From the NCBI GenBank assembly GCA_028868375.1, contig JAGWUP010000008.1, positions 4,751 through 68,750 on the forward strand: a stretch of DNA of 64,000 nucleotides. Direction: 5' to 3'. The notes beneath the pieces were generated by a model. That model worked only from the letters and a program-made list of their open reading frames with translations. It was not told the origin of the DNA and ran no database searches. How positions within the stretch are numbered: the first letter of the stretch is position 1; the number at the start of each line of letters is the position of its first letter. The DNA is from Elusimicrobiota bacterium (lineage in GTDB: Bacteria > Elusimicrobiota > Elusimicrobia > UBA1565 > UBA9628). The position numbers and the translations under genes are program-made. Below, one piece after another: positions 1 to 30,178 of this stretch.

Positions 1-121
1 GGCGCACGGGTAATTGCCGCGGCAAACGAGCAAAGAAAGAAAGTTTCCGATGCCACGACTGCGCTTTCAGGCTTGCAATGATGTCGTTTCGCGCCGGCTC
101 ATGCGCCGGGAATCAGACGTC

Positions 122-131
122 TAGGTCCTTT
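122..131 (+). promoter_or_regulatory. TAGGTCCTTT motif (preceded by AGACGTCT palindrome) ~45 nt upstream of the 1055-aa secreted-protein gene
   Basis: Read directly: gacgtctaggtcctttggccc. Near-identical decamers occur upstream of the two giant genes at 3371 and 15283. Confidence 0.3.
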
Positions 132-176
132 GGCCCTTGCCGGATTTCTCGCGGAGGCGTACTCTTGCGGTAATTC

Positions 177-3100
177 ATGAGCCACGATACCCCTCAGAGC
201 CTATCCCGAATCGCTTGGCTGGCCTGCGCGCTGCTCTTGGGCTTCGCCGCGCGGGCGAGGACGGCGCCCCCGCTGCCGCCGATGCACGCCTGGGCCGTCA
301 TCCACGCCGGGCCGCAGGTCTATTACGTGGACGCGGACAAGGACGGGGCGCGCTACCAGCGGATGCTCAAGCATCAGTTCGGCGGGCCGATCTCGCTGTA
401 CGTCGAGGAGCAGGAGACCGCTCAAGGCAAGCTGAAGACGGTCAAGGCCCCCTCTCATGCGGCGTTGTTCTGCGACGGAGCCGGCGACGATTGGGCCTGC
501 CGAATCGTCGTCAACAAGGGCTCCGGCGGCAACTTCAGCGTCTCGGTGAACATCAACGGCAAGCAGCCGGCGATCGCGCCGACGCTGCTGGCTCCTGCGG
601 AGCGCCGCCCGGAGGGCATCCAGAGGGCGGTTTGGGCCGTCGTCGTCAATTTGGGGCTAAAGGAAAAATACTGGGCGCGCGCGGCCGGGGTGCTGCAGCA
701 GGCGCTGGACCCGAAACGGAACAAGAACGCGGCGGGCTTGAGGGCGGCCGACGCCACCCAGATGTCCGCCTTGTTTAGCGGCATACTGGCCGATTTGGTC
801 AAGCCCGATTCCCCCGACAAGAAGATCGAGAAGAAGATGGTCCAGTACCTGATCGCCAATTCCCCCAAGGCCGCCGCGCCGCCGCGGCCGATCGTGCCCA
901 AGGCCCATGGAGCGCCGGTGGGGCCGGCCGCCGGCAAGCCCGAAGACAAGAAGAAAGCCGAGGACAACGCGATCAACACCCTGGCCTTATTGCTGAAGCA
1001 GCGGCAGCCGCAGGCCGACCTGGCCGGCCGGATCATGGCCTACCTTAAGGCGCCGCAGGGCGCGGCGGCCTTCATCGAGCTGCCCCAGGCGCGTCGCGAG
1101 GCGGGGCTTAAAATGCTGTCCGGCGCCGTGTCGGCTTGGGTGACGAGGGCGGCGAAGACCGCGCAGGGGCGTGGCAAGGAGGCGGGGCTCTACTACGTCC
1201 TGGGCGATTCGCCTAAGGCTTGGTTTGCCGGCCATCCGGTTCTCGACGCGCTCGCAAAGCCCAACGCCGCGCTCCCGGATTTCGACCGCAAGATGGCGAT
1301 CTTCACGGTGGGCGGGGCCAAGCGCGCCCCGGCCAACGCGGGGCCGTTCAAGGGCGACATGGCCTGGCCGGCCGCCATGCTCGAGACGGCGACGGAGTTC
1401 GCGCGGCAGGCGATCAACGACCGCAGGCTCGCCCCCCAGGTCAAGGCCAGCGTCGACACGCACGACCAGGGCCTGCCGGTGCCGGGAGGCCCCGGCGCTC
1501 CGGGCGGCGGACTCAAGCGCGGTTTCAGCGCGCGCGGCTTCAACGTCGCGGACCTCTACGAGAAGGGCGGCGTAACGCAATTTTGGAATATCGATGGCAC
1601 CGAGCCGCCGAAGCATTTGATCTCGATACGCGTCTACTCGAAGGTCTCCAGTTGGGGCCCGCCGCCGCGGATTAGCGATCGCATCGGCATCTTCGACATA
1701 AACCCCGATGAGTTCAAGCACCCCAGCCCGGTCCACCACCTTGTCGGCCAATACTTCTCATTGAACCAGACCGGCGACTCCACATTCCAGTTGGGCAGCG
1801 GGAAGTCGGGCACCTTCAAGCTGAGCATGGGGGCCGACGAGTCGATCAGCCTGGTGCCGGTGGACTCCCAGTCCAAGGAGCCGATTTCCGATCCGCTGAC
1901 GACCAGCATTTCGGCGCTTTTCGCCGCGCGCAAAGGGCTGGCGGCCAGCGAGGGCTACTACGAGAAGATCAACGGCCAGGGCTTCCGCGTCATCGGGCAG
2001 GGCGGCGAGCGCGGCGCGCTGCTCTACTACGCGGTCGGCGCGGACGGCCGGCCCTTGAGCGACGACCCCTCCCTCATCGCCCAGGTCAACGAGGTCAGCG
2101 ACGGCCGCACCCAGCCCCTCTCCGGCGACCGCCCGCTGGGCTACGTCGGCATGAAGGCCGACGGCAAGACTCCGCAGGCCTACGGCTTGGCCTGGAACAA
2201 TGAGACCAAGACCTTCGATCCCAAGGAGATCGACTCGGACGCCCTGGGCGATGCGCCGGGCGCCAGCAGCACGACGGTGGCCTCCAGCGACGGGGCGCCG
2301 GCGGACAAGGGGACCACCGCCGACACCGACGACGACAAGGGCGGCGCCGGCAAGGCCGGCGGCGGCAAGGCCAAGAAGGAGGAGGCCGGCAACGGCGCCG
2401 ACGTCGGCGGCGAGCTGGCGCATTGCGACTACAAGGAGAAGCCGACGGACTATCCAGACGCCGTCTGGTACCACAAGCCGGCGGCGGGCTGGGGCCACGG
2501 TTGGCAATTCTACACGCCGCAGGTGCCGCTAAATCCCAAGACGAATGCAGTCGACTATACGATGGCCAACGCCACCTATATCTGCGTCTACGGCAAGTAC
2601 ATGCTCTTCCTCTCCCAAGGCTTGGTCGCGGACGGCGACATCTCGGTGGAAGGCGACAAGGATATCCTGGACATCCGGACGGCGGTGCCCGACGCCGACA
2701 TCAAGACCAAGAATCTTTTCATCAAGCCCGAGCTGCTGCAGAAAGGCCTGAAGGTGGAGGGGCGCACGCTGGTCTACGGTGGCGGCCTCCGAAGGCCGAT
2801 CACAAGCACTGTCGTGCCATCAACGGAATACTTCATTAAATTGCGCGATCTTAAGAAGCTGCTGCAGCTTTGGGGAGACCGGAGCAGCGTGTTCGCCGCG
2901 GGAGTCAAGAAGGTGGCATGGGTCAGCCGCAACCGCGAGTGGGAGAGCGCCGAGGCATCGGAGGCCTTCACGGTCTATTGGCGGCCGCAGGAGACTCGGC
3001 AGGAAGCGCTGGCGGACATCACCGAAGCGCTTAAGAAATTCATCCCGCATGTAGCGGATGAGAACTACTGCCTAAAGGACGGCAGCCTCCGGCCGGAGCT

Positions 3101-3344
3101 GGCCGATTACCTAGACGACGTGCTGAAAAATCCCGGGGCGAAGAAATGGCTCAACGTTCAGGACAGTTCGCAGAAAGACGATCCTGGCTTCACGCCCCCG
3201 TCCGTTGCCTTCCACTGTTTGAATACTAATGATAGTGCCGACTGGTGGGTTGTGGCGTCCGCCCCGCCCAGTTGGAAGCACATCGGGAGATTGAAGGCGG
3301 TTCCCCAGGATGACGGCACGACGATCCTTAAAACGGCGCCTTGA
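177..3344 (+). CDS. hypothetical large secreted protein (1055 aa), no recognisable catalytic motif
   Basis: Single uninterrupted 3.2-kb ORF. N-terminal signal-peptide-like segment (LSRIAWLACALLLGFAARA). Coding-like composition. The C-terminal 600 nt is lower in GC than the surrounding sequence. Confidence 0.6.
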   Translation: MSHDTPQSLSRIAWLACALLLGFAARARTAPPLPPMHAWAVIHAGPQVYYVDADKDGARYQRMLKHQFGGPISLYVEEQETAQGKLKTVKAPSHAALFCDGAGDDWACRIVVNKGSGGNFSVSVNINGKQPAIAPTLLAPAERRPEGIQRAVWAVVVNLGLKEKYWARAAGVLQQALDPKRNKNAAGLRAADATQMSALFSGILADLVKPDSPDKKIEKKMVQYLIANSPKAAAPPRPIVPKAHGAPVGPAAGKPEDKKKAEDNAINTLALLLKQRQPQADLAGRIMAYLKAPQGAAAFIELPQARREAGLKMLSGAVSAWVTRAAKTAQGRGKEAGLYYVLGDSPKAWFAGHPVLDALAKPNAALPDFDRKMAIFTVGGAKRAPANAGPFKGDMAWPAAMLETATEFARQAINDRRLAPQVKASVDTHDQGLPVPGGPGAPGGGLKRGFSARGFNVADLYEKGGVTQFWNIDGTEPPKHLISIRVYSKVSSWGPPPRISDRIGIFDINPDEFKHPSPVHHLVGQYFSLNQTGDSTFQLGSGKSGTFKLSMGADESISLVPVDSQSKEPISDPLTTSISALFAARKGLAASEGYYEKINGQGFRVIGQGGERGALLYYAVGADGRPLSDDPSLIAQVNEVSDGRTQPLSGDRPLGYVGMKADGKTPQAYGLAWNNETKTFDPKEIDSDALGDAPGASSTTVASSDGAPADKGTTADTDDDKGGAGKAGGGKAKKEEAGNGADVGGELAHCDYKEKPTDYPDAVWYHKPAAGWGHGWQFYTPQVPLNPKTNAVDYTMANATYICVYGKYMLFLSQGLVADGDISVEGDKDILDIRTAVPDADIKTKNLFIKPELLQKGLKVEGRTLVYGGGLRRPITSTVVPSTEYFIKLRDLKKLLQLWGDRSSVFAAGVKKVAWVSRNREWESAEASEAFTVYWRPQETRQEALADITEALKKFIPHVADENYCLKDGSLRPELADYLDDVLKNPGAKKWLNVQDSSQKDDPGFTPPSVAFHCLNTNDSADWWVVASAPPSWKHIGRLKAVPQDDGTTILKTAP

Positions 3345-3370: not shown

Positions 3371-3380
3371 TAGGTCTTTA
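3371..3380 (+). promoter_or_regulatory. TAGGTCTTTA motif plus CCTATAGG palindrome in a low-GC leader ~30 nt upstream of the giant gene
   Basis: Read directly: ctaggcctataggtctttagtcctattccctctagggcc. It lies in the 64-nt AT-richer gap before the ATG at 3409. Confidence 0.3.
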
Positions 3381-3408
3381 GTCCTATTCCCTCTAGGGCC
3401 TACAGCCC

Positions 3409-6400
3409 ATGGCCGAGGGCCATCCGGCCTGTTACACTCGCTGCATGAAGGCGGCGCTCTGCCTGATCCTGTCGGCGGCCCTGATCCTTTCTTCCGGGGG
3501 GACGTCGCTGCTGGCCAAGCCGGTCACGCACTGGGATCCTCTCTACAGGCGGCTGCGAGTCAGCGACGACGGCGCCTCCACGCCGATCGCGCGCGTCGCC
3601 CGGATGATCGAGCATCTGCCGCCCAAGCTGAGGGCCGCGGCGCTTCAGATCGGCGGAGATCAGAGGCTGTCGCAGGCGGAGCGCGAGCGCGCGCTCGCAT
3701 TTTTGGTGCGCTATCGCCCGGCCCTGGCCGGCGACCAGAAGGCCGCCAAGGAGATCGACGCCACCCTCCACGACTTGCGCGACCCGGAGATCGATCCCGG
3801 CTTGACCTTGGCGCGGATGTTCGATCATCTCTCGCGGACGGCCCGGATGGCCGAGAGGGATCGCACCGACGTGCAGTGGGAGGGGGACCCGAGTCATGAG
3901 GCGACCGCTGTCGTCTCCAATTCCCTGATCGGCAATACGACGTTCATCCAGCATACGGTGCGCAAGGACGCGGACAACTCGATCCGCACGATCACGCGGC
4001 CGGCCGATCCCGACGATCCCTCCTCGCCGCAGCAGTTGGAGGCCGTCGTCTTGGAGCAGAGGCGGGGCGCCGACACCTTGCAGCGGGTCTGCTACAACCG
4101 CCGCATCCACGTGCTGCTGCGCAACCTGCGCAAGCTCTACTACGACCAGTGCTCCCTGGTGCGCCGCGTCAACAACGGGGAGCTGCTGCTGCAAGACACC
4201 CCCTGCCAGGACGCCAAGGGCTGGCGCGACGAGAAGCTGACGCCGGAGGTCCGGCGCAAGCTGCAGGCCTTCTACGACGGCAACCGGCGGCGCTTCCCGC
4301 CGGAGCTGCTGGATTACCTGGACTACCTCGACCGCATGGAGAAGCAGGGCCGGCTGGGCAACCTGCGCGACTGGCGCAAGCTGCAGAGCATGCAGCGCCT
4401 GGCCCTGGCCTTCTACAACGACAACCAGCTCCAGGTCTACCAGCGCGCGGTGATCATGGAGATCACCAATTATTTCTCGCAGTTGACAGGGGTGCAGCCC
4501 AAGCAGAAGCGGGGCGAGGAGATGCTGGACATCGGCGCGCGCAAGCTGGAGGATTTCCAGCGCCTGCTCGATCAGTTCCACAAGGGGCGCATGGAGGGCT
4601 ACTCAAGCTGGCTGGCCGAGCTGGGATTCTCCAAGCTCGACATCAAGAACCGCCGCGACGCCACCAGCCAGGCCATGGACATCGTCTCCGAGGCCTTCGC
4701 CGACGTGGCCTACGCCTACCAGGCCCAGCAGCGCCTGCTGGACCCGGACGCCGAGCTCTCCGGAGCGGAGCGCGACGCCGCCATCGCCGAGACCAGCCAG
4801 TGGCTGCAGCTGGCGCAAATCCAGGTGACGCGCTTCGAGATGCTGACGGAGTCCACCAGCCTGGACCATCTGGCCGCCGGCACCCTGCGCGGCATCGGCA
4901 TCCAGCGCTACGACGAGCAGATGAAGGGCCAGGCCCGCAGGCTGGCCAGCGCCGCGCGCCGGCAGTACTACCCGGCCATCGCCCAGGCCAGCCGGCAGGC
5001 CAAGCGGGAGCTGCTGCGCCAGACGGTCTCGGAGCTCTTCACGACCTTCAACGCCGCCTCCACCTCCTGGCAGTTCCGCCGCCCGCTGAGAGAGAAGCTG
5101 CGGCTGTTGGCGGCCAAGGCCGACCAGTTGCTGCAGCTCTACCTCTCGGCGCAGTTCGAGGCGGCGCGGGACAACCCCTCCTTCCAGCGCGACTTCACCG
5201 AGTCGCAGCGCGTGGAGGGCAGCGAGTACGCTTATTTCCTAAGCCATCTGCCCGCCAACTGCCGGCATGTCCGGGAGCTGGTGTCCTCCCTTAAGGAGGG
5301 GCTGCTGGCCCTGCTCAAGGAGCGGGAGGTCGGCTCCGTCCGGCAGGGCTTGGCTCCCCTGCGCGCGCGCTTTGCCGCCGTCGCGCGCGCCATCTTCGGC
5401 GACGGGGACATCCCGACGCCGCTGCAGATACAGCGCGAGTCCCAGGCCCTCTCCGTGCGGCAGGGCCGGCTCTTCGCCGCGGCCGCCCAGTTCGCCAACA
5501 AGATGCGGCTGTTCGACGCCATCAACGAGCTGGACATCTACGTCGACAAGTACGCGGACAACACGAAGTGGCTGCAGACCGAGAACGACGGCTTTTGGAC
5601 CCAGTTGACCAGCTTCCAGTGGCTTAACTACGCCTTCGGGAAGGTCCCCGGGCGCGAGGCCGCCGCCGACGCGATGCTTCGCAACGCGCACATCGATGCC
5701 ACCCTGCCGCTGCTGGGCGAGGTCCGCGTCGACTACAGGCGCGCCTTCGAGGAGCTTCGGGGCCATCCCGAGCGCCGCTTCAAGATCGACCAGGCCCTGC
5801 GCGAGGGGCGCTTCGACGACGCCTACCGGCTGGTGGCCAAGATCGATCCCGAGGGCGCGCAAAAGGCCGAGAAGGAGGCGCGGCTGGACAAGCTCGACGA
5901 GGACCCCGCCGACCTGCTCGATTTGGACGGCCTGATGAGCCATCAATATCAGGACACCGCCCAGACCCGGGCCTTGGGCAGCATCCAGGGCGCCTTCGTG
6001 CAGTTGCCGAAGCTCATCACCGGCTACGCCCTCGCCACGGCCGTCACCGACACCGTGATCAGCGCGGTGGCCTCGGCGGCGATCATGCCGGTGGCGCCGG
6101 TCTTGTTGGGCGGCCTGGGCGAGGCGACCCTCGGCGTCGGCAGGTTCGTCGAGCTCGTTCCGGCTTTGGACGAGACCGCCTCCGTCGGCCGCATGACGCG
6201 GATTATCCACGGCATCGCCAGCCTTTTCAACGCCGGGAGCTGGGCGGTGGAGTATCCCGGAAAGGTGATGATCTCCACGGCGCGCACGGCCCGCAAGGCC
6301 ATCGGCATGGCGGCTCCCCTGGAGGAGCGCAGCGCCTGGGTCCAGGCCGCCGCGATGTACTTGCCGGGCAGCGGGCTCTACGCCAACGTCGCCTGCGCCT

Positions 6401-12929: not shown

Positions 12930-12964
12930 GTAAAAACCGGCCCCGCGTTATATAGAATCCAACC

Positions 12965-13990: not shown

Positions 13991-14130
13991 ATCAACATCT
14001 AAATTAGTTAAACTCAGGCACTAAGCTGGCGTAGCCGGCTTGCGTCTGACCGCAGGGAATGGTTTGACTCCGAAGAATTCGGGAAGAAAACCATGGCCGG
14101 ATAGGGAAAATGCGTCAGGCCATGACGTCC

Positions 14131-14349
14131 GGCGCTGCCACGCAATAACATGAACATTCTGGAGGCCCGAGCTTGAGACGATTTCAAGGCGCGAAGAGAG
14201 GGCATGGCGGTAGTCATGCGGGCGATGAGCAACGCGGAAATCGGCCAACCTCGGGCTTCCCCACAGAGCCGGGCCGTTTTTGGGCTGCGCCTTCGTCGCC
14301 CCGCTCCAAAATCGCGCACGGCAGAGCGACCATCTTATTGCGTGGCAGC
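14131..14349. repeat. ~219-bp element bounded by a perfect 18-bp inverted repeat (GGCGCTGCCACGCAATAA ... TTATTGCGTGGCAGCGCC); MITE-like or structured-RNA element
   Basis: Arms at 14131-14148 and 14332-14349 are exact reverse complements. The interior is lower in GC. The right arm ends 5 nt before the transposase-like ATG. A related element is at 58934-59153. Confidence 0.5.
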
Positions 14350-14354
14350 GCCTA

Positions 14355-15257: not shown

Positions 15258-15265
15258 CACTGACC

Positions 15266-15293
15266 CTAGGACCTAAAATAGCGTAGGTCCTTT
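15266..15293 (+). promoter_or_regulatory. AGGACCTA-N8-TAGGTCCT inverted repeat including TAGGTCCTTTA, ~65 nt upstream of the 4939-aa gene
   Basis: Read directly: ctaggacctaaaatagcgtaggtcctttaatatc. The same TAGGTC(C)TTT decamer occurs at 122 and 3371. AGGAGGAG lies further downstream. Confidence 0.35.
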
Positions 15294-15358
15294 AATATCA
15301 GAGGAGGAGCCAAGGGTTCCTACCGCTTTGGCGCCGCCAAAGCTACTCTAAGGGCCTG

Positions 15359-24300: not shown

Positions 24301-27300
24301 GGACGGGAGCGGGAACGAGAACGGCAGCCTCGCCTTGGGCTCGCTGGACGAGGCGTTCTCGCAAGCCGAGTCGCGCTCGGGCAGCCTGGCCGAGGTGGCG
24401 CTGCGCGAGCAGGCCGCGGCCGAGATGGCGCGCGACAACGCCCATCGCATCCAGAAGGTCCTCCTCGATTTGAACATCGGCACCGGCTTGACGGCCAGCG
24501 GCGACGGCTGGCTGCCGGCCGTCGGCCTGACCGGCTACCCGGTGATGCCGATCGTCCGCTTCGAGTTCAAGCCGGAGGAATTGCGGGAGCTGCAGGCCGA
24601 GGAGGGGCGCGGCCAGACGGAGTACTACCGGCAGCTCAAGGCCGAGCTGGAGGGGGAGCTGGCCTTGGAGCTCTATCAGAGCGTCGTCGCCTATCAAAGC
24701 GCCTCCGCCGCCGTCTCGCGCTACGACGACTCCCTGCTGCCGGGGCTGCGGGAGCGGGCCGAGGTCGAGGGGCAAGGCAGCGGCGGGGCCGCCGTCAAGG
24801 CCCAGCGGCGCCTGGACGCGGCCTTGGAGAAGCGCGCGCAGGCGGCCTTGGCGCGGCGGCAGGCGCTGGCGACGCTGAACTTCCTCTTGGGGCGCCGGGG
24901 CGACGCTCCGTTGCAGGTGGGAATCGACGCGGACCAGGCCCTGGCCTGGCTGCGCGCCGCCCTCTCGCGGGAGAACCCGGTGGCGGCGCGGCAGCGGCTG
25001 CTTAAGGCGCGCGTTCAGACGGCCCAGGCCGTCGAGACGGTGGTCGACAAGGACCTCAGGGCCCAGCAGCTTGCCCTGGAGCCGGTCTCGCTGGTGGCGC
25101 GCTCGCTGGGGCGGCTGATCGATGTCTTGGGCGGCGGCAAGCCCGGACGTCCCCAACTGCTGGCGGAGGCCCGCGCGCAGACCTTGAGGGAGCAGCGCGC
25201 GCTCGACGCCTATCCAGGCCAGCGGCGAGCCGCGATCGCGCAGGCGAAAGCCCAGTTGAACTTGGTCCGCTCCCGCTTGGAAAGCCTCTCCAACGGCGGC
25301 GACGCCGCCCAGCGCGAGCTGTTGCTCGGCCGCGAGCGGATACTCTTGGGCGCCCTGTGCGCCTTGGGCGCCGACGGGCAGGACGCCGCCCCGCAGAGCT
25401 ACTCCGAGCTCCCGCATTCCTTCGACGAGTTGGGCGAGCGCCTGGCGCAAGCGCGACAGGACATGTCGGCGCGACAGCCGGGCTCGCCGGTCGAGCTGCT
25501 GGCGCCGGCAACGCAGCGGCAGCGGCCCGCCGGCTTCGCCCGCTATTACTACGCCCAGCAGACGCTGGGAAAGGTTGCCATCGACAAGAGCTACGTCGAG
25601 GGCTGGCTTGAGACGCGGCTGCGCGACTACGAGACCGATCCGAAGGTCCTGCTGCGCCTGGCGCAGTTGAGCGGCCGCAAGGCAGACGAGCTTCATCGCG
25701 TCGAGGTCGCGGGCTCGCGCGCCCAGGGCGAGATGCTGGCGGCCGATTTCGAGGCGGAGGCGCGGCTGCTGCGCTGGGCCGAGACCGCGCGCGGGCAGGA
25801 AGGGGCGGATTTGCGGGCCTCCCTGCTCAAGGAGCTGGAGGCACGGAGAGCCGAGATCGTCGCCCTGTTGAACCTTCCCCCGGACACCGGTCTCGACTCT
25901 CTGCTGGCCCTGGTGCCCGCCCAATCGCGGGGGGACGGCGATCCCTCCGCGCTTGCGAGCGGCTTCTCCGGGCAGATCCGCCGGCTGGGGCTGGGCGAGC
26001 TGGAGAGATCATTGTTCGCCGACGGGCAATTGGCGGGCTTGGGAACGGATGCGGACCTCCTCTCCCGCTTGCGCGCCGGCCTGCTGGCCGAGCGGATGAG
26101 CTACGACGGCCTGACCCCCGTCCTGGCCTTCGGCCTCTTCCGCGGCACGCCGACGGGCGGGGCCGTCCTCGAGGTCCCCGACCCGCGCCAGATCGAGCAT
26201 GGGTTGGACAACATGCTCTCCGAGGCGCTGCGCAAGGACTTGGAATCCTCCGGCCGGCTGCGGGAGCTGTCCCTGGGCCTGCGCGCGCTGATGGCCAAGG
26301 TCCAGGACGAGGAGGTGGAGGTCGAGCGCAGCGCCCGCCTGGTCCAGGCGGCGGAGGCGGACTATCGCGCCCAAATGGGCCTGGTGGGCGAGGGCGGCGA
26401 CCTCGCCGAGGCGGAGGCGGCGCGCTCCCGGCTGCTCAAGGCCTGGCTGGGATTCTCGCGGCGGCTCTCCGGGGCCAGGGCCGATTTCGTCGAGCTCGTC
26501 ACCGAGCTGGAGGCCCTCAATCCCGGCCGGCGGGCCGGCTTAAGGCCGCTGGTCCATCCCCTGCGCGCGCAGCCGCCGACCTTGAGGTCCGACCCCCGCC
26601 GGCGGCTCTTGTCCTATTGGACCGACCGGATGCTGGACGCGGATTTCCGCGCCGACCTGTCCCGCCGGCTGGACTTGATCGCCGCTCGCGCCTCCCCCGC
26701 CCAAGGGAAGGCCTTGTCGCAGTTGCGCCGGCGCCTGGAGGAGGACGCCGGGCTGTACTCGACCGCGGATCGGGACGCCGCGGCCGTGCTGGCCAAGGAC
26801 TTCTCGGACGCGGAGCGCCTCGACCTGCTCTCGCGCAACGATCGGGAAGGCAAGCGGGAGGCGCTGAGCTTCGATCTGGGCCGGCTCTTGGAGGCTTGCG
26901 GCGGGCTGTCGCAGCGCGACGATCCGTTGGTGGCCTTCCTGGTCCGGGACATCGACGCCCAGGCCCGGCGCGCCGCCGCAGCGCGCGACGACTTCGCCGC
27001 GCTAGACGGCGCGCTCAGGCAGGCCGCCTGGAGCGCGGACGACCCGGCGCGGGGGATCTTCCAGCGCTTGGAGGCCGCGCGCCAAACGATGGAGACGGCG
27101 CGGCAGGCCCTCTGGGCGGACGACGACGGTCTGGAAGAGAACGCGACGCGGGTGCTGCTCAAGGACAGCCGGCTGGACGACTTCTTGAAGGCGCAGCAGC
27201 GCTACGACGCCGAGGTCGTGGGGACCTTCCAATCCGAGGCCGTGCGCCGCGATCGCTCCCTGGCCTGGCGTCTCGACGCCTTCTTCGACCTCGACGCCGC

Positions 27301-30178
27301 CCTCGACCGGCAGATCGACGCCGCGCGCGGGGGCCGCGGGATGCTGGCCATGGACGCCTTGATCGCCCTGGAGCGCTCGCGCTTGCTGGCCGCGCGCTGG
27401 GAGGGCCGTCCCCCCGGCGAGCTGGACGCGCTGGCCGCCAACTTGCAGGCCCTGCGCGACAGGCGGCAGGCCTGGCGCTCCGGCGCCTCCGACGTGGAGC
27501 CGCTCTACGCGGTGACCAGGATCGAGCGCGACGGCCGCCGCCTCTGGAGCGTGGAGGGCTGGATGACGCGCCGAGAGTTCGAGGCCGAGCGCGCCGCCGG
27601 GCGAGTCAAGTCCGTCGACGGGCGCATGATCTGGAGCGGGGGGGCAGCCCCGCGCGAGTTGATCGGCGGCATCGACGCGGCGCGCGCTGACTTGGACTCG
27701 GCCCGGTCGGCCGCGCGGGACAACGGAGCGGTCCTTTCCCGGCAGGGCCTGCTGGAGCGCTACGATTACGTGCCGGATCGCCCCTTGCGCGGGGACCGGG
27801 CCCCCGCCCGCGAGGGGCTCTCCGTCGAGGATCTTTTCGGCGCCGCGGGCCTGGGCCGCCAAGGCCGGCTGTTATTCTTCAAGGCGCCCAAGCCCGGCGA
27901 GCCCGCCGGCTCCGAGCACCAGGCCTTGGACCCGATCGCGGCGCTGAGCCTGAGCCCGGACGATTACGTCGTCTACGCCTACGACGGCGGCAAGCCCTTG
28001 GACAAAGGCGCCTTCCCGAGCCTGGAAAGCCTCAAGGACTCCGAGCGCCGCAGCGATTTTGCGCGGCTGACTCTTTCCCCCTCGGGGGCGCGGGATCTGG
28101 GCGCGCGCCTGGAGCGGCAGCGCCAGGCGGAGCTCGAAGCCGGCTGGGTCGACGTCAAGCTGGACGGCTACGGCTTCGCGCGCGACGCCAAGGGCGACGT
28201 CGTCCAGATTTACCTGACCCGAGACGACTTCCGCGCCCAGCGAAAGGCCTTCGCCAACGCCGCGCGCGACTTGGAGGCGCTGCGGGCCGCAAGCCGCCGC
28301 GCCCAAGAGCGGGAGCAGCGCGCCAAGGGCGAGCTGGAGGCCCGGCGCGCGGCGCTCGAGCATGCCCGACCGGCCTACGAGGCCGCCCGGGCGCGGCGCT
28401 CAAGCGACAAGGCGGGCTTTGATTCCGCCCAGGCCGCTTTCGACGCCCTGTCGAAGGCCTCCAGCCGGGCGCAGGCGGACTATGAGGCCGCCAACGCCGC
28501 GGCGCAGAACGCCAGGCGGGCGGTGACGGAGGAGAAGAGCACATTGGCGCGGTCGAAGGCCTGGAGCCTCTATCGCAGCCGCGATCTATCCCTGTCGCTC
28601 GACGCCGACGGGACGATCGTCGCCGCGGCGGCGCAGCCCGTCTACGGCGCGCAGACCCTCTCGCAGCCGGTGGCCTCGGGAGGGCCGGTCGCCCGGGTGC
28701 TCTCCGGGGAGCTGCTGGCGGCGGCCCTGGACTCCCAAGGCCGCCTGGTCGGCTATTACCAGGACCCCGAGGCGCTGGCGGCCGACGCCCGGCGCTGGAA
28801 GCTGGTGACCGTGTCCCTGGGCGCGGGCTCCGAGCTGCCGGCGGCGGCGAGGACGGTCGATCCCCGCGCGCGCCTGGACCATTACGAGCTGCCGCTGCCC
28901 GGAGGGGGCTCGGCGCCCATCGCCCTCAACCGCCGCTACCTGATCGCCCAGGTCCAAGACGCCCGCGCCAAGCTCCATGCCGCGGACCATTACGCCGTCC
29001 TGCCTTGGCATTGGGGCGACTTGCTGCTCGAGCTTCCGCGCGGGGTGGCCGGCGCCCCGCTGGAATTATTGGGCGGCCGAGATCCCCGCCAGCAGCATTA
29101 CCTGGGCCGCGCGGCCATGTACCGGACGGAGGGCGGCTCCACGGAGCGTCAGGGTTTCTTCCGCCGGGCGGCGGGCTTGATCGACATACTGGACTTCCTG
29201 CCCGATCCGGTCGAGCGCTTCTTCGACCCCAGCCAGTTCCCGGATCATGTCGCCGTCGATTCCCCGCTGCTGCCCGGCCAGAGCGTGTTCGACAAGGGCA
29301 TGCGGACCTTGGACGGCAGAAAGGACATCCACTTCGGCGCCACGGCGCTGCGGCGCGAGCTTTCCTACTCCCTGGAGGATCTCGCCGCCGAACAACGGCG
29401 CGCCCTGGAGCATTTCCACGGCGGCGAGGAGACGCTGCTCGTCTCAAGCTGGAGGGGGCGCTCCGGCCTCTACCAGGACTCCACGCGCTCCGGCGCCGCG
29501 GGGCCGCAAGCCCTGCGCTCCGCCCTGAATGAGCCCTCCTTCTCCGCCGAGCTGCCGGACAGCCTGGCCGTCGAGGGCTTGCGGCGCGTGGTGCGGCCGC
29601 GCCTGGGCGCCGACGAGCTGGCCCAGGAGGAGGCGGCGCTGAAGGGCTATCCCGAGGCCTTCTTGCGGCGGCTGGGCCTGAGGCGCTCAAGGCAAGCCGG
29701 GCTTGAACAGCGCTCGGCCCGGGCCCAAGCGACTCTTAAGCGCGCCCAGGCGGCGCGCCGCGGGGCTCATGCGCGCGCCGAGGCGCTGTGGTCGCGGCGC
29801 GAGGCGCTGGCCGAGCGCGTCTCCGCCTACGACGCCGCGCGGACCCGGTTGGAGCGCTCGCGCGCAAGGCAGGCGGAGCTGGCCCGCAGCCTGGCGTTCT
29901 GGCGGCACGAGCTGGCGCGGCTGAACGCGCGGGCCCAGGGCTTGAGGCCCGCGGGTCCCCGGCGCGATTTTCCGGCGAAGGCATCCCCTCTTGCCGCCCC
30001 GTCGGCAGCTCCCGCGGCCCCCGCCCGACTGCCCGCCCCCGCTCCCGCGACCCATGGGGAAAAACCGGCGCCAGCCTCGCGAAGCCTGCCTTGGGGCCTG
30101 GGCTTGGCCGGCGCCATCCTGACGGCCGCGCTGTTGTGGTGGAAGCGGCGCTGGGCCTTAAGGCCTAGTCATTCATAG
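15359..30178 (+). CDS. giant envelope protein (4939 aa): signal peptide, Pro/Ala-rich linker, polytopic membrane domain, coiled coils, beta-rich region, TolC/OEP-like module, long helical C-terminal part, C-terminal TM anchor
   Basis: Single 14.8-kb ORF. N-terminal MKRLLRQAVACLTVASLLITAPGLG. At least 10 hydrophobic helices in aa 220-900. A Q/N-rich coiled coil follows. The TolC-like segment (about 23350-24900) includes VSLRIPVYD, AIRAYRNGLIGEAELQQAFDTW and LATLNFLLG. The C-terminus is LPWGLGLAGAILTAALLWWKRRW. Confidence 0.7.
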   Translation: MKRLLRQAVACLTVASLLITAPGLGLYSALAAQMGEAAGDIPEGLPPRLPGSPIGPAGGVGISAQAAANWRRRLDAARALGGAGAVSQPAPPQSAQSAPAQAWRSLRASVAAGLVPPGQGGRQAAASPAAAAQSGASPEAASGLAARLFDHLKNLGGGLRRLVFDSEEEEPAEEVPAAEVPAAEVPAAEGRRSPALAPALAPASEPDPAQPEPAQPPAVAKPVGARHWLGAAGMTALSGAITWKFGAPKLAGWAAALIHAPAAAPAIAVALTALLTYSTAKQQFGALLERRRAHRLAEIREREGELAAVDWELEQAPRPAPNTAPHEIVGLALIVAAAAAGHALWSGPGAVGGFLLGAWFSDRWLSLRRDRFKEDRQKRDELLRRRKALGGSEAQEASPDGPVADALEPPLGGSPPRGPPAGLSPPGTEPSAASQGPRVFEDFFGFRWVRGRLHEPAAEPSSGRLETLTAGALILGSAFAGFAAFGLLGAAGGLVAGYALAFHRQARLARGSAREVLPLSATTEQVIRALARDGGWTRQRLLELMAPFGLGESSPLDAWLAVHDWLRVHGDREQFKRFDHEKSDHSWRELANVRYSEGRRGALERLAEVQKHSAGAFVRFPYHLFDLFVLGYFRQNMAYELFHSGEDFLGALQPGLREKYLLHAASQAVAARGFKRSLRAQPIYRALDRYLWTPWLGPLGQFLSRRLTLAVASAVAMGVLGGLAPVLTVFGLPLLSLSLTTIPLLGPALIAIVNALPVLVGWLPFCGHALAPVAAAAAQKLLADLVVGPMLNTLILSSFLTFPHAVRQRLAELDAADPARRRGLRSQELCAAALAVASSSAYWRANLKSFLAMMTVGAEIEGIMTYADVADQAASAVSGAHVTLFHALGSAVERPRGKSLIPFGGAITWGNVLLYKAQNWLGFNLSDAVAHGVSVFIGDRLPGVVHAQTLLAVAEGRYRGARGPKPAPFDKTLYRKSPGQVWRRLKDLASRGGDLESRIAQAKARAEAARRELASERKRFAALEASLPPSVTPAQRAELERLNARYASARDEDYARGKLAEDGDLAAAPDAARLARLRALKQSYADDLVARDGRRPAVSDALAARRAQLLALERSLSSVVEKGTVALPNGTAARLPDATVTQIAQLVKTIEDLRSQAKGEMANRDAESRLLGVLAQARHNALRERRNGRGMSDFHRNLARLDTVMSLALSLNEIAAAEQAIHQMMALLDAKIAKINAAAQQNQQNLAQAQQNQQQTQKWKDEANQVISADQSTQKTIVDYENRTALAAERVGSFQHDLSALIGVINARDGGQSRDALTEYARRLALLPQVADWRTNGNPNDSSAFSLKTFQDDLSQVDGYIQKVQDGIGQLRQTPLEAAGVAIILVPGPDVTIHNPTKEQTLQILADRKTYWQRQSQQYRDDLARINRMMDPGNTNTTTDEFGDSAPESLPRYLSQEQGIEQTARANVQQYAAQIDAAADQINSVAGSNLPHLSGLPLDQLESVITNYGNLARAVKLPDSGGNDAAYLASMNMLSLAKLIPYAADNVVQWAKADATITSINSAMATTLPQAKTRLTAIVQVFDDVLADDDADVAYVTHGGDPQALLNRKIDLLQNKVLPALQGADDLLRNVLIPYQRQSIAQVQVDASAPLYQLLTSQQTLAQSVSQLYNSDVAWALASFGGSKSDPAGSRASIAAWKKTIEQNLNGYDDAQGHHEGVNEYIVEVQHRKDPNYAGPETTDYLKDPNYPDGGPFSLPRKIALYSAERAQRVAQLNAQDAQINDILSHIETVSKGRYNLQSFRLPTDLTGDAAGASRAQALFDSNLIQNLGGELQQIAADNQSSGAGISVADQGSAGPPTGTQPPITASDAQTLSLLALDAAKRIVPSSLQQPQTAPASYALARLLYSNGTLSAAQDALTNQIPVAETVLAHAQAVLTAADDTSKDEAYVDSNGTSESADSVYARKVALFSSLNAFLQEGANFFNLKGQWDMASLNTVDQVSQYYGGLGTIYGGASSTTSGELQAATQMKAALQTTLDGLEQSRTKVKGWMSQLDDPHDSALARVSESVATLQDQTRKVLEANVQWQGVRDQLRRSDDIVAAKLGELDEAQQRLVRLLDRPDVSGGGLPPDLINRIEALRLAGGSWAWGGSDGSPEAIAVKKSDFGGFVESLLDALGARGSSENLPLLRQDLLSNPGGLSALLPDAKMLEFGGDDGFYLIYQSRFSVPNGLETGTDVTLGNAARLGGNNISVGGYQLASQPSDASAPYGDKGAWVQVESLRGKNWVNYLNVDLHRFIFDIPPDAKPISQLRESRLLVFDDFAMLLFGDRLYVGLAGFADRAVDQPGQHPSYYGGNLKTSIRLNGVMRLNAEQRELFANDPRKFLETVNLDFTGFDPDLNQTFAIQAHGDNKHYSRTQVGPSFDVGKLLGSKDAFTLDLYWAKTTGSDDIHQESLGVSILKGFTLADADGKPWAVIDNQANAELGQQYPAYRDRLSVTLPRQGIVVSGQGQILGPTSAYYGEISKSFGDHSTVRVGYGSRYVGIKDRLSLEMNTSFTLRQLYEAVLAHGRSQLKGGRQLSRFNTDIKNFFDSDRDGGGSGTRVEALRRVFDQDVGRKLLTQDIGTLRRDIDQLRGAGAFLDNTRVQGMIGFISNPVSSDQADVTVGGGPVAATQTELTLTRSQKALIQAKTQALFLDGLRLQQRLLELSRRWQEDVAQIARAQWDLKLASFMRQNAGTEALRRQAGVLAADASDRLHQALLDYNALSGRSPDAPVPFKDLSASDLRELTAAIRGTLSGGDRLKAILHELDPAQMKERLGPEAFNLLDWLPFLDRMTLSIGAQLQDSLANQAMTVGVSLRIPVYDPSSGHADKAYRLESRATIAQMAELQAERRLEADRQDAQARLSAGQAKAAQAGLPRAARALSLAIRAYRNGLIGEAELQQAFDTWRWYAREALDGEIESSLSAAWAASGRYLAGSTDDGNGDGSGNENGSLALGSLDEAFSQAESRSGSLAEVALREQAAAEMARDNAHRIQKVLLDLNIGTGLTASGDGWLPAVGLTGYPVMPIVRFEFKPEELRELQAEEGRGQTEYYRQLKAELEGELALELYQSVVAYQSASAAVSRYDDSLLPGLRERAEVEGQGSGGAAVKAQRRLDAALEKRAQAALARRQALATLNFLLGRRGDAPLQVGIDADQALAWLRAALSRENPVAARQRLLKARVQTAQAVETVVDKDLRAQQLALEPVSLVARSLGRLIDVLGGGKPGRPQLLAEARAQTLREQRALDAYPGQRRAAIAQAKAQLNLVRSRLESLSNGGDAAQRELLLGRERILLGALCALGADGQDAAPQSYSELPHSFDELGERLAQARQDMSARQPGSPVELLAPATQRQRPAGFARYYYAQQTLGKVAIDKSYVEGWLETRLRDYETDPKVLLRLAQLSGRKADELHRVEVAGSRAQGEMLAADFEAEARLLRWAETARGQEGADLRASLLKELEARRAEIVALLNLPPDTGLDSLLALVPAQSRGDGDPSALASGFSGQIRRLGLGELERSLFADGQLAGLGTDADLLSRLRAGLLAERMSYDGLTPVLAFGLFRGTPTGGAVLEVPDPRQIEHGLDNMLSEALRKDLESSGRLRELSLGLRALMAKVQDEEVEVERSARLVQAAEADYRAQMGLVGEGGDLAEAEAARSRLLKAWLGFSRRLSGARADFVELVTELEALNPGRRAGLRPLVHPLRAQPPTLRSDPRRRLLSYWTDRMLDADFRADLSRRLDLIAARASPAQGKALSQLRRRLEEDAGLYSTADRDAAAVLAKDFSDAERLDLLSRNDREGKREALSFDLGRLLEACGGLSQRDDPLVAFLVRDIDAQARRAAAARDDFAALDGALRQAAWSADDPARGIFQRLEAARQTMETARQALWADDDGLEENATRVLLKDSRLDDFLKAQQRYDAEVVGTFQSEAVRRDRSLAWRLDAFFDLDAALDRQIDAARGGRGMLAMDALIALERSRLLAARWEGRPPGELDALAANLQALRDRRQAWRSGASDVEPLYAVTRIERDGRRLWSVEGWMTRREFEAERAAGRVKSVDGRMIWSGGAAPRELIGGIDAARADLDSARSAARDNGAVLSRQGLLERYDYVPDRPLRGDRAPAREGLSVEDLFGAAGLGRQGRLLFFKAPKPGEPAGSEHQALDPIAALSLSPDDYVVYAYDGGKPLDKGAFPSLESLKDSERRSDFARLTLSPSGARDLGARLERQRQAELEAGWVDVKLDGYGFARDAKGDVVQIYLTRDDFRAQRKAFANAARDLEALRAASRRAQEREQRAKGELEARRAALEHARPAYEAARARRSSDKAGFDSAQAAFDALSKASSRAQADYEAANAAAQNARRAVTEEKSTLARSKAWSLYRSRDLSLSLDADGTIVAAAAQPVYGAQTLSQPVASGGPVARVLSGELLAAALDSQGRLVGYYQDPEALAADARRWKLVTVSLGAGSELPAAARTVDPRARLDHYELPLPGGGSAPIALNRRYLIAQVQDARAKLHAADHYAVLPWHWGDLLLELPRGVAGAPLELLGGRDPRQQHYLGRAAMYRTEGGSTERQGFFRRAAGLIDILDFLPDPVERFFDPSQFPDHVAVDSPLLPGQSVFDKGMRTLDGRKDIHFGATALRRELSYSLEDLAAEQRRALEHFHGGEETLLVSSWRGRSGLYQDSTRSGAAGPQALRSALNEPSFSAELPDSLAVEGLRRVVRPRLGADELAQEEAALKGYPEAFLRRLGLRRSRQAGLEQRSARAQATLKRAQAARRGAHARAEALWSRREALAERVSAYDAARTRLERSRARQAELARSLAFWRHELARLNARAQGLRPAGPRRDFPAKASPLAAPSAAPAAPARLPAPAPATHGEKPAPASRSLPWGLGLAGAILTAALLWWKRRWALRPSHS
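15872..15925 (+). repeat. in-frame 15-bp tandem repeat (~3.5 copies) encoding (A)EVPAA
   Basis: gcggaggaagtgcca / gcggcggaagtgcca / gcggcggaagtgccc / gctgcggagg, located inside the giant gene. Confidence 0.6.

What the first reader, a model, noticed from the sequence alone, without database searches (positions are those of the whole stretch)
100..30178. Cluster of three giant secreted/envelope protein genes sharing an upstream TAGGTC(C)TTT / AGGACC palindromic motif
All three large genes (177, 3409, 15359) are preceded by short AT-richer leaders. The leaders carry near-identical decamers: TAGGTCCTTT at 122, TAGGTCTTTA at 3371 and TAGGTCCTTTA at 15283. Each decamer sits beside a palindrome: AGACGTCT, CCTATAGG and AGGACCTA-N8-TAGGTCCT respectively. 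CTAG-containing sites are otherwise scarce in this window. This suggests a common dimeric regulator controlling a giant-protein regulon. The neighbouring HuH-DnaA-HTH protein is a candidate regulator.
Basis: seen in the sequence. Interest (0 to 1): 0.75.

Follow-up and report, generated by a model that had tools for sequence, protein, structure and literature searches.

The report
Conserved promoter-upstream boxes, giant-gene cluster
The shared TAGGTCC motif is real: it belongs to a family of short two-part DNA boxes that sit at fixed distances upstream of the promoters of a conserved cluster of giant envelope-protein genes in uncultured Elusimicrobia, most likely docking sites for a still unidentified regulator.

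Summary
TAGGTCYTT occurs three times in 64 kb (0.12 expected), always on the + strand in the spacers before the three big genes. The window alone is weak evidence (P about 0.02); related genomes decide it. The organism is an Elusimicrobia MAG, and the cluster [A][B][g1][g2][Wzy][K channel][HUH-DnaA_C][g3] recurs in distant relatives. The decamer is part of a ~15-bp dyad of two GGNCC-type boxes. Upstream of g1, a 19-mer (CTAGGTCCTTTGGCCCTTG) is identical in three genomes whose proteins are only 28-40% identical. The dyads lie at fixed distances from -10 hexamers that sit 6-11 nt before the start codons (leaderless-type promoters): about -42 (g1, gene 30225), -66/-68 (g2, gene 30225) and -88/-90 (g3, 15 of 16 loci measured). 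The g3 dyad-to-(-10) spacer is 68-69 nt in the 9 loci measured, at only ~50-65% identity. The distance to the upstream stop codon varies from 3 to 52 nt. Best reading: promoter-coupled protein-binding sites. At g3 the boxes also form a hairpin plus T-run that probably terminates the HUH gene. The HUH-DnaA_C protein is a nuclease-dead TIRYT-type transposase relic. It is a plausible but untested binder, and its own terminal repeats (CTGRCAC) differ from the boxes.

The parts
121..139 (+). g1 upstream element CTAGGTCCTTTGGCCCTTG.
   Evidence: The 19 bases are identical in the window, L087 and L088, while the rest of the spacer is diverged. The centre lies at -42/-43 in all three.
160..165 (+). 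g1 -10-like hexamer TACTCT, 11 nt before ATG 177.
   Evidence: TTGnnn-N17/18-TACnnT is kept in L087 and L088. TAnnnT lies 5-12 nt before 15 of 32 starts against 1.1% of random positions.
177..3344 (+). g1, 1055 aa, signal-peptide-like N-terminus, no Pfam or NCBIfam family.
   Evidence: homologues at 28-31% identity in L087 and L088
3363..3386 (+). g2 upstream boxes: three tandem 8-mers TAGGCCTA|TAGGTCTT|TAGTCCTA.
   Evidence: A dyad at the same place just after the g1 stop occurs in 5 lineages; TAGG.C....G.CC is invariant. It is 79% complementary in register with no compensatory changes. Centres are -66, -68 and -68.
3394..3409 (+). Further box TAGGGCCTA / dyad AGGGCCTACAGCCCA, centre about -43 relative to the g2 promoter.
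3430..3438 (+). g2 extended -10, TGTTACACT, 6 nt before ATG 3445 (leaderless type).
   Evidence: CTGTTAC(A/C)CT is conserved in the window, L087, L088 and L090.
3445..11196 (+). g2, 2583 aa, signal-peptide-like N-terminus, with a Walker-A/ResIII-like segment near aa 1800.
14355..15257 (+). HUH(Y1)-DnaA_C gene: a nuclease-dead TIRYT-type transposase relic and the candidate DNA-binding protein.
   Evidence: Pfam Y1_Tnp + Bac_DnaA_C. More than 100 orthologue clusters at 48-63% identity. Both HUH histidines are present in 0 of 30 orthologues; Tyr is present in 28 of 30. The AF2 model matches the RAYT structure 4er8 and the DnaA DNA-binding domain 3pvp.
15246..15260 (+). TIR-like right flank of the HUH gene, CTTAACTCCTGACAC; it overlaps the stop codon.
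   Evidence: It aligns with TTAAAGCCTG(G/A)CAC of the orthologues and with the right terminal repeat TTAAAGCTCTGACCCC of canonical TIRYT elements.
15261..15275 (+). g3 upstream dyad TGACCCTAGGACCTA, centre -88.
   Evidence: An orthologous dyad lies at -88 to -90 in 15 of 16 loci (L015: -95). The distance to the HUH stop varies from 3 to 52 nt. The dyad-to-(-10) spacer is 68-69 nt in 9 loci at 45-68% identity.
15268..15296 (+). Inverted repeat AGGACCTA-N8-TAGGTCCT followed by TTTAAT. Probable terminator hairpin of the HUH gene.
   Evidence: A hairpin ending in GGNCC plus a T-run is found in 14 loci and the window. One-sided changes keep G-U pairs. The terminator scan did not call the window copy.
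15344..15349 (+). g3 -10-like hexamer TACTCT, 9 nt before ATG 15359.
   Evidence: TA(A/T)(G/C)CT-N6-10-start is conserved in the orthologues.
15359..30178 (+). g3, 4939 aa, signal-peptide-like N-terminus, coiled-coil-like segments, C-terminal hydrophobic helix followed by KRRW.
   Evidence: orthologues at 36-45% identity directly downstream of the HUH gene in 7 loci
30153..30190 (+). Two more dyads, GGGCCTTAAGGCCTA (30153-30167, centre -66) and TAGGACCATGGACCT (30176-30190, centre -43). They overlap the end of g3 and lie upstream of TGTTAGACT (30211-30219) and ATG 30225.
53193..53207 (+). Possible outlying member: TAGGACCATCGTCCC, centre -87 relative to TACAAT (53275-53280) of gene 53291-55090.
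   Evidence: not checked in relatives

Best explanation
The decamer is the most visible part of a family of ~15-bp dyad boxes. Each box is two GGNCC-type pentamers 7-8 bp apart, roughly (T)RGGNCC-WW-NGGNCCYW, often beginning CTAGG. The boxes lie upstream of sigma-70-like promoters whose -10 hexamer (TAnnnT) sits 6-11 nt before the start codon, which implies leaderless or near-leaderless mRNAs. The boxes occupy three discrete positions relative to the inferred transcription start: about -42 (g1; gene 30225), -66/-68 (g2; gene 30225) and -88/-90 (g3; perhaps gene 53291). I infer that they are binding sites for a cluster-specific, probably dimeric, DNA-binding protein. This protein would co-regulate separately promoted genes of a conserved Elusimicrobia envelope cluster: [A][B][g1][g2][Wzy-like][K channel][HUH-DnaA_C][g3][next gene]. 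At g3 the box array doubles as the stem of a hairpin plus T-run that probably terminates transcription of the upstream HUH gene. Shown: the motif, its conservation, its dyad symmetry, its fixed spacing to conserved -10 hexamers, and the loss of the HUH active site. Inferred: the transcription starts, protein binding, and the direction of regulation. The binder is unknown. The nuclease-dead HUH-DnaA_C protein is the only DNA-binding candidate in the cluster; I put about 0.3 on it being the binder.
For: The motif is real and strand-specific. The g1 19-mer is identical in three genomes whose g1 and g2 proteins are 28-40% identical. The g2 dyad is kept in 5 lineages; its symmetric positions are invariant and there are no compensatory changes, as expected for a DNA site rather than an RNA helix. 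The g3 dyad lies at -88 to -90 in 15 of 16 loci, while its distance to the upstream stop ranges from 3 to 52 nt. The dyad-to-(-10) spacer is 68-69 nt in 9 loci at only 45-68% identity. In alignment A6 the 5' arm and the 'loop' box (GTCCCA) are invariant even in L004 and L008, where the 3' arm no longer pairs. GGNCC occurs 66 times in 20 leaders against 11.8 expected, with spacing peaks at 7-8 and 15-16 nt. TAnnnT lies 5-12 nt before 15 of 32 starts against 1.1% at random, and the hexamers are conserved in relatives. TAGGTCCTTT occurs nowhere else in the Elusimicrobia loci fetched, beyond the window's own g3 copy and the g1 positions.
Against: There are no transcription-start or binding data; the starts are inferred as the -10 hexamer end + 7. 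The three position classes are not in one helical phase (-42 to -67 is about 2.3 turns). The loose dyad pattern is not enriched window-wide (16 matches against 11.4 expected), so the boxes are defined by context and conservation, not by sequence alone. The g3 loci are phylogenetically related (about 8-9 independent lineages), and L015 (-95) and L090 deviate. The g3 hairpin shows RNA-type wobble conservation, and the T-run is always 3' of it, so part of the signal there is a terminator. I could not scan the rest of this genome for copy number.
Confidence: 0.55

Rival explanations
1. The motifs are only the 3' arms and U-tracts of intrinsic terminators (or 3'-end stabilising hairpins) of the upstream genes B, g1 and HUH. 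On this reading they have no role in regulating the downstream genes.
For: All copies lie 26-40 nt after a + strand stop codon and on the + strand. In the HUH|g3 spacer, every one of the 14 loci examined and the window has a GC-rich hairpin ending in GGNCC and followed by a T-run; 7 of the 15 have at least 5 T in 8. One-sided changes in the stem are wobble-preserving: 11 of them, plus 2 compensatory pairs. The + strand fold is the more stable in 10 of the 15 sequences.
Against: The g1 19-mer is conserved without any stable hairpin in the window and L088. In L087 the g1|g2 spacer has a separate canonical terminator downstream of the boxes. The g2 dyad shows no covariation. The dyad position is fixed relative to the promoter, not the stop codon. 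The window's site 3 was not called by the terminator scan.
Confidence: 0.15
2. The boxes are relics of REP/TIR-type repeats, spread by a once-active HUH (TIRYT/RAYT-like) transposase and now without function.
For: The HUH gene is a TIRYT-type relic whose flanks align with canonical TIRYT terminal repeats. The g3 array starts directly after that flank. GGGGTCC in relatives resembles the GGGGWSAS repeat core (PMC3733652). Other palindromes carry CTGACCCTAG (36757-36794), and a ~230-nt hairpin repeat with CTGGCAC-like ends exists in 2-3 copies.
Against: The boxes sit at orthologous positions with fixed promoter spacing across genomes with about 30% protein identity, which means purifying selection. 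Copy number is low in the 68 kb available. The TAGG boxes differ from the CTGRCAC repeat core. The enzyme is dead in all 30 orthologues.
Confidence: 0.07
3. The conserved block is part of the promoter itself, as an UP-like or extended -35 element read by RNA polymerase or by an alternative sigma factor, rather than a site for a separate regulator.
For: At g1 the 19-mer runs into the TTG of the -35 hexamer, and its centre is at -42. A T-tract follows the boxes.
Against: The same box occurs at -66 and -88, too far upstream for sigma contacts. No conserved ECF-type -10 lies 16-17 nt downstream of GGTCC (read). The -10 hexamers are of the ordinary TAnnnT type shared with housekeeping genes. No sigma-54 pattern is present in the three leaders.
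Confidence: 0.1
4. It is a chance resemblance among AT-richer, TAG-permissive spacers.
For: The in-window test gives only P = 0.018. TAGGNCY is not enriched window-wide (28 matches against 29 expected).
Against: 10 of the 28 TAGGNCY matches fall in the 296 nt of the three spacers. The comparative conservation argues against chance.
Confidence: 0.02

Closest known systems
Activator/repressor dyad sites at fixed promoter positions (CRP/FNR-type class II at about -41.5 and class I further upstream; general knowledge)
   Same: A dyad of about 15-16 bp, discrete positions relative to the promoter (-42, -66/-68, -88/-90), several promoters of one functional cluster sharing the site, and a T-tract between the distal site and the promoter.
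   Different: The sequence is unrelated and the binder is unknown. The positions are not in one helical phase. The promoters are of the leaderless type. Nothing has been tested biochemically.
Intrinsic (rho-independent) terminators
   Same: A GC-rich hairpin plus T-run after the HUH gene in the window and all 14 relatives examined, with RNA-type wobble conservation in the stem.
   Different: The 5' arm and the 'loop' are sequence-conserved and positioned relative to the downstream promoter. Sites 1 and 2 lack a conserved hairpin.
TIRYT / TnpA_REP subclass 2.1.2 'TIRtrons' (Di Nocera 2013, PMC3733652; Quentin 2018, PMC6006769)
   Same: The protein has the Y1/HUH fold plus a C-terminal Bac_DnaA_C helix-turn-helix domain. 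The gene flanks align with canonical terminal repeats (GGGGTCAG.../...CTGACCCC).
   Different: The HUH histidines are lost in all 30 orthologues, and the Tyr+4 residue that ligands metal in E. coli TnpA_REP (N119) is L/V/I here. The gene is fixed in synteny across Elusimicrobia at 48-63% identity. In one clade the left flank is a direct rather than an inverted copy.
REP elements and RAYT (E. coli structure 4er8)
   Same: This is the best structural match of the N-terminal domain. The elements are short palindromic extragenic sequences next to the gene, some beginning (G)TAGG.
   Different: They are not high-copy in the DNA available. There is no consistent GTAG tag. The enzyme is inactive.
MetJ met-box arrays (tandem 8-bp AGACGTCT; own knowledge)
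   Same: The boxes have 8-bp phasing, and AGACGTCT at 115-122 equals the met-box consensus.
   Different: AGACGTCT is not conserved in L087 or L088, and no ribbon-helix-helix gene was found in the cluster. This is a resemblance only.
TldR, nuclease-dead TnpB-derived transcription factors (bioRxiv 10.64898/2026.09.22.753285; abstract seen)
   Same: It is a precedent for a transposon-encoded nuclease of the IS200/IS605 world losing catalysis and becoming a repressor.
   Different: It is a different protein (RNA-guided TnpB, not the Y1 transposase). It is an analogy only.

Membership tests
Intrinsic terminator | Stable GC-rich hairpin directly upstream of the T-run | tested here: inconclusive
   Met at site 3 (8-bp stem, -9.6 to -11.5 kcal/mol) and in all 14 orthologous loci examined (-12 to -28 kcal/mol). 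Not met at site 1 in the window and L088, and weak at site 2.
Intrinsic terminator | U-tract (at least 5 T in 8) within 0-2 nt of the stem | tested here: inconclusive
   The window's site 3 was not called by the scan. By my reading of the tails listed, 7 of the 15 sequences meet it; the others have TTTAAT.
Intrinsic terminator | Pairing maintained by RNA-type substitutions | tested here: met
   For the g3 hairpin clade: 11 wobble-preserving one-sided changes and 2 compensatory pairs. Not met for the g2 dyad.
Operator/activator dyad site | Dyad symmetry of the conserved positions | tested here: met
   g2 box: 79% of cells are complementary in register against 10-48% when slid. TAGG.C/G.CC is invariant.
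Operator/activator dyad site | Conserved position relative to the promoter | tested here: met
   -42/-43 (g1, 3 genomes), -66 to -68 (g2, 3 genomes), -88 to -90 (g3, 15 of 16 loci). The g3 spacer is 68-69 nt in 9 loci. The transcription starts are inferred, not measured.
Operator/activator dyad site | Specific binding by a protein | not testable with these tools
   Needs EMSA, DAP-seq or footprinting.
TIRYT / TnpA_REP subclass 2.1.2 (the protein at 14355-15257) | Y1 (HUH) transposase fold plus C-terminal Bac_DnaA_C/HTH | tested here: met
   Pfam. NCBIfam REP_Tyr_transpos scores 60 bits, below its cut-off of 80. Foldseek matches 4er8_A (E 1.4e-6) and 3pvp. The profile hits DnaA domain IV.
TIRYT / TnpA_REP subclass 2.1.2 (the protein at 14355-15257) | HUH histidine pair (conserved in all described TIRYTs, PMC3733652) | tested here: not met
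   The window has K-V-H. 0 of 30 orthologues have both His. Distant homologues keep NHYHL, NHVHL or NHFHL.
TIRYT / TnpA_REP subclass 2.1.2 (the protein at 14355-15257) | Catalytic tyrosine | tested here: met
   Y102 is present in 28 of 30 orthologues and is F in 2.
TIRYT / TnpA_REP subclass 2.1.2 (the protein at 14355-15257) | Gene flanked by terminal inverted repeats with a GGGGWSAS-like core | tested here: inconclusive
   The right flank aligns with the canonical right repeat. An inverted left copy, GTG(T/C)CAGAC, is present in L090, L017 and L018. In the L003-L016 clade the left copy is direct. In the window the left flank is occupied by the 230-nt repeat.
REP/BIME repeats | High-copy dispersed extragenic palindromes with a GTAG or CGTC tag | tested here: not met
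   The 68 kb of this genome contain only the cluster spacers plus a few outliers. The boxes are preceded variously by C, A or G before TAGG. The whole genome was not available.
Sigma-54 promoter (suggested by CTGGCAC) | TGGCAC-N5-TTGC with GG at -24 and GC at -12 | tested here: not met
   No match with 2 or fewer mismatches in the three leaders. The relatives lack GC at the -12 position, and many have CTGACAC.
ops/JUMPStart antitermination element | GGCGGTAG on the non-template strand in the leader | tested here: not met
   No + strand match with 1 or fewer mismatches in the leaders, and no NusG paralogue in the window.
Known RNA family | Rfam covariance-model match | tested here: not met
   Only two tRNAs reach the gathering score in the window. 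Nothing meaningful appears at E <= 5 in 13950-15400.

The most novel reading that the evidence does not exclude
A tyrosine (HUH/Y1) transposase of the TIRYT type lost its nuclease site. It was fixed across Elusimicrobia as a transcription factor that binds repeat-derived GGNCC dyad boxes through its hairpin-binding core and its DnaA-domain-IV helix-turn-helix. It thereby co-regulates a conserved cluster of giant envelope-protein genes that are transcribed as leaderless mRNAs. This would be a Y1-transposase counterpart of the nuclease-dead TnpB repressors.
Probability: 0.2. Interest if true: 0.7.

Novelty: new member of a known kind. Interest (0 to 1): 0.45.

Why it matters
Elusimicrobia are almost entirely uncultured, and nothing is known about their promoters or regulators. 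This locus gives a concrete, testable regulatory architecture: leaderless-type promoters with a -10 hexamer 6 nt before the start codon, and a dyad box held at -42, -67 or -89 over deep divergence. It marks out a conserved cluster of unannotatable giant secreted or membrane proteins, together with a Wzy-like protein, as one co-regulated unit. It also documents a nuclease-dead, vertically inherited TIRYT-type HUH protein, a candidate case of a transposase domesticated as a DNA-binding factor. If the link between protein and boxes were shown, it would give the large HUH+DnaA_C family (TnpA_REP subclass 2.1), which has no function assigned in the papers I read, its first assigned function.

Tried and rejected
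- **Sigma-54 reading of CTGGCAC:** rejected. There is no -12 GC, GA variants occur, and the spacing to the -10 hexamer is variable.
- **ECF-type promoter with GGTCC as -35:** rejected. No conserved -10 lies 16-17 nt downstream in the three g1 leaders.
- **RfaH ops/JUMPStart:** absent.
- **Rfam families:** none found for the leaders or for the 230-nt repeat.
- **Met-box idea:** AGACGTCT is not conserved.
- **Loose regular expression for the dyad:** too permissive in GC-rich coding DNA (16 matches against 11.4 expected). The boxes therefore cannot be defined by that pattern alone.
- **Genome-collection scan with the HUH protein:** found only one relative.
- **Homologue searches with g1 and g2:** gave 1 and 3 proteins.
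- **DNA of the P0121 contig:** not retrievable. P0122 is not on record.
- **Giant-protein function:** Pfam and NCBIfam give nothing beyond a ResIII-like segment and a weak OEP hit.
- **TAGGTCCTTT in L080/L082:** this is an AT-rich, unrelated contig and the match is chance.
- **Strand asymmetry of hairpin stability:** only mildly in favour of the + strand (10 of 15).
- **Rest of the MAG (GCA_028865065.1):** I could not obtain it, so genome-wide copy number is untested.

Full report
**1. The observation**

TAGGTCYTT occurs exactly three times in the window, all on the + strand, against 0.12 expected from shuffles of the whole window. The flanking palindromes are present. CTAG is about four-fold depleted in the window (28 against 114), and four of the 28 copies lie in the three spacers. 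The spacers have GC 0.60, 0.64 and 0.535 against 0.693 overall.

The motif was chosen after seeing the data, so I also asked a fairer question: how often do dinucleotide shuffles of the three spacers share any 9-mer with at most one mismatch? The answer is P = 0.018. The window alone is suggestive, not conclusive.

**2. Where the window comes from, and the gene map**

The 4939-aa protein is found exactly in the MAG GCA_028865065.1 (contig JAGWKZ010000019.1) and in Logan assemblies. The only relative in the species-level genome collection is an Elusimicrobia MAG.

| Gene | Coordinates | Notes |
|---|---|---|
| g1 | 177-3344 | 1055 aa |
| g2 | 3445-11196 | 2583 aa |
| Wzy_C protein | 11193-12929 | |
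| TrkA-type K channel | 12965-13990 | |
| HUH(Y1_Tnp)+Bac_DnaA_C protein | 14355-15257 | |
| g3 | 15359-30178 | 4939 aa |
| Unknown gene | 30225-31499 | 424 aa |

A longer contig adds two unannotatable genes upstream, A (512 aa) and B (851 aa); B's stop codon ends at window position 81. It also adds an operon promoter, TTGACA-N17-TACACT.

g1, g2 and g3 are not paralogues of one another. They have signal-peptide-like N-termini. None has a convincing Pfam or NCBIfam family beyond a ResIII-like Walker-A segment in g2 and a weak OEP hit in g3.

The order [A][B][g1][g2][Wzy][K channel][HUH][g3], or a shortened version of it, recurs in L087, L088, L090, L091 and the P0121 contig. g3 orthologues at 36-45% identity follow the HUH gene in seven loci.

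**3. Promoters**

A TAnnnT hexamer lies 5-12 nt (most often 6 nt) before 15 of 32 start codons in the window, against 1.1% of random positions. The hexamers are conserved in relatives:
- TGCTAGAAT-N6-9-ATG before the HUH gene in most of the 21 related loci printed.
- CTGTTAC(A/C)CT before g2 in four lineages, 6 nt from the ATG in three of them.
- TA(A/T)(G/C)CT-N6-10-start before g3.
- TTGnnn-N17/18-TACnnT before g1.

I infer that each of g1, g2, g3 and gene 30225 has its own promoter and a leaderless or near-leaderless mRNA. The boxes then lie upstream of the transcription start and are not in a 5' leader. This is inference; there are no transcript data.

**4. Comparative evidence**

Upstream of g1, the 19-mer CTAGGTCCTTTGGCCCTTG is identical in the window, L087 and L088. 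The g1 and g2 proteins of those genomes are only 28-40% identical, and the rest of the spacer has diverged.

Just after the g1 stop codon, five lineages carry a dyad:

| Locus | Dyad |
|---|---|
| window | TAGGTCTTTAGTCCTA |
| L087 | TAGGTCGAAGGACCCA |
| L088 | TAGGCCCTTGGACCTA |
| L090 | TAGGCCCTATGACCCG |
| L091 | TAGG-CGACGGACCAAG |

The pattern TAGG.C....G.CC is invariant. The two halves are 79% complementary in register, but variable positions break the pairing rather than compensate for it. That is what a protein-binding DNA dyad predicts, and not what an RNA helix predicts.

Downstream of the HUH gene, the alignable loci share one architecture:
1. A flank, TTAAAGCCTG(G/A)CAC.
2. A dyad such as GGGTCCTTAGTCCCA; in the window it is TGACCCTAGGACCTA at 15261-15275.
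3. A further GGNCC box. The window's TAGGTCC at 15284 aligns with TGGGCC in the relatives.
4. A T-run.
5. The g3 promoter.

GGNCC occurs 66 times in 20 leaders against 11.8 expected, with spacing peaks at 7-8 and 15-16 nt. TAGGTCCTTT itself occurs nowhere else in the fetched Elusimicrobia loci beyond the window's own g3 copy and the g1 positions.

**5. Geometry**

I took the transcription start as the end of the -10 hexamer plus 7. The dyad centres then fall into three classes:

| Class | Members |
|---|---|
| -42/-43 | g1 in three genomes; gene 30225; a second box before g2 |
| -66 to -68 | g2 in three genomes; gene 30225 |
| -87 to -90 | g3 in 15 of 16 loci (L015: -95); g2 of L090; gene 53291 |

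For g3, the distance from the HUH stop codon to the dyad varies from 3 to 52 nt. The dyad-to-(-10) spacer is 68 or 69 nt in nine loci, although its sequence is only 45-68% identical. The element is therefore positioned relative to the downstream promoter. This is the strongest argument for a promoter-coupled DNA site.

**6. The terminator component**

In the window and every relative examined, the g3 boxes can form a GC-rich hairpin that ends in GGNCC and is followed by a T-run. In the best-sampled clade, one-sided substitutions in the stem are all wobble-preserving. The pairing register differs between lineages. The 5' arm and the 'loop' box stay invariant even where the 3' arm no longer pairs, as in L004 and L008.

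I conclude that the HUH|g3 spacer carries both a probable terminator for the HUH gene and a conserved dyad. The terminator reading does not carry over to the other sites. The g1 19-mer has no stable hairpin in two of three genomes, and L087 has a separate canonical terminator downstream of the g2 boxes.

**7. The candidate regulator**

The 300-aa protein has more than 100 full-length orthologue clusters at 48-63% identity, nearly all from Elusimicrobia. Its model (pLDDT 85.8) matches the E. coli RAYT-REP complex (4er8) at the N-terminus and the DnaA DNA-binding domain (3pvp) at the C-terminus. A sequence profile also hits DnaA domain IV.

This architecture is subclass 2.1.2 of the TnpA_REP superfamily, equated with 'TIRYT' transposases (PMC6006769, PMC3733652). 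In those, the HUH motif and the tyrosine are reported as conserved in all members. Here, 0 of 30 orthologues keep both histidines. The Tyr+4 residue, which ligands metal as N119 in E. coli TnpA_REP (PMC6006769), is L/V/I. The tyrosine itself remains in 28 of 30. Distant homologues from other phyla keep NH(Y/V/F)HL and are flanked by true inverted repeats, GGGGTCAG.../...CTGACCCC.

The Elusimicrobial right flank aligns with that right repeat. Basal lineages retain an inverted left copy. The gene is therefore a fossil 'TIRtron' encoding a nuclease-dead, vertically inherited DNA-binding protein.

*For it as the binder of the boxes:*
- It is the only DNA-binding protein in the cluster.
- Its synteny with the cluster is conserved.
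- The g3 array starts at its flank.

*Against:*
- Its own repeats (CTGRCAC) differ from the TAGG/GGNCC boxes.
- Those repeats are not seen at g1 or g2.
- L092 keeps the gene next to Wzy and glycosyltransferase genes, without g3 and without the array.

I give this about 0.3.

**8. Verdict**

The finding is a real, evolutionarily conserved cis element. Its best explanation is a set of promoter-coupled dyad binding sites, with a terminator superimposed at g3. This is a known kind of feature in an unstudied phylum. The regulator is unidentified. The most novel reading not excluded is a domesticated, nuclease-dead Y1 transposase acting as the transcription factor.

Noticed in passing
14131-14352 (+) and 58925-59162 (-); partial copy at 31528-31562: A ~230-nt repeat that folds into one long hairpin (z = -5.3 and -9.3). 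The two copies are 73-79% identical, and differences in the closing stem keep the pairing. There is no Rfam match. It sits between the K-channel and HUH genes, where all relatives have a spacer of only about 46 nt, and again, inverted, upstream of ftsA. Its ends (GCTGCCACGC...GCGTGGCAGC) resemble the CTGGCAC flank of the HUH gene. It looks like a MITE or repeat-dimer element.
   Followed up: partly
window-wide, e.g. 12953-12958, 35410-35415, 50957-50962, 57230-57235: Leaderless-type gene starts: a TAnnnT hexamer lies 5-12 nt (mostly 6 nt) before 15 of 32 start codons against 1.1% of random positions, and many of these genes have no Shine-Dalgarno sequence.
   Followed up: partly
36757-36794: A perfect palindrome, ACTGAAATCTAGGGTC/TGACCCTAGATTTCAGT, between the glutamate dehydrogenase and glycerate kinase genes. 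It overlaps a TAGATT hexamer 10 nt before ATG 36795. It contains CTGACCCTAG, the same 10-mer as the HUH right flank at 15260-15269.
   Followed up: no
14355-15257 and orthologues: The HUH/Y1 transposase-like protein has lost both catalytic histidines in every orthologue examined, yet is conserved at 48-63% identity in fixed synteny. This indicates a domesticated, non-catalytic role.
   Followed up: yes
13109-13195: ARAGORN calls a tRNA-Trp inside the K-channel coding sequence. Rfam does not support it, so it is probably a false positive.
   Followed up: partly
3445-11196: g2 is a 2583-aa protein with a signal-peptide-like N-terminus and hydrophobic stretches. It has an internal Walker-A/ResIII helicase-like segment near aa 1800, an odd combination for an exported protein.
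   Followed up: no
30100-30178: g3 ends in a hydrophobic helix followed by KRRW, which resembles a C-terminal membrane anchor or sorting signal. A Wzy_C/O-antigen-ligase-like gene is conserved in the cluster.
   Followed up: no
45015-50927: A 1970-aa autotransporter with eight PATR repeats and long Gly-rich GGC repeats. It lies downstream of tRNA-Lys and tRNA-Glu, has a canonical Shine-Dalgarno sequence and has no TAGG boxes.
   Followed up: no
L092 10880-10945 (relative, GCA_016218545.1): In this lineage the HUH gene has no g3 downstream. It is followed by a long perfect hairpin, CTAGGAGCCTGAGCAAT...ATTGCTCAGGCTCCTAG, and its left flank has palindromes containing GGTGTCAGAC.
   Followed up: no
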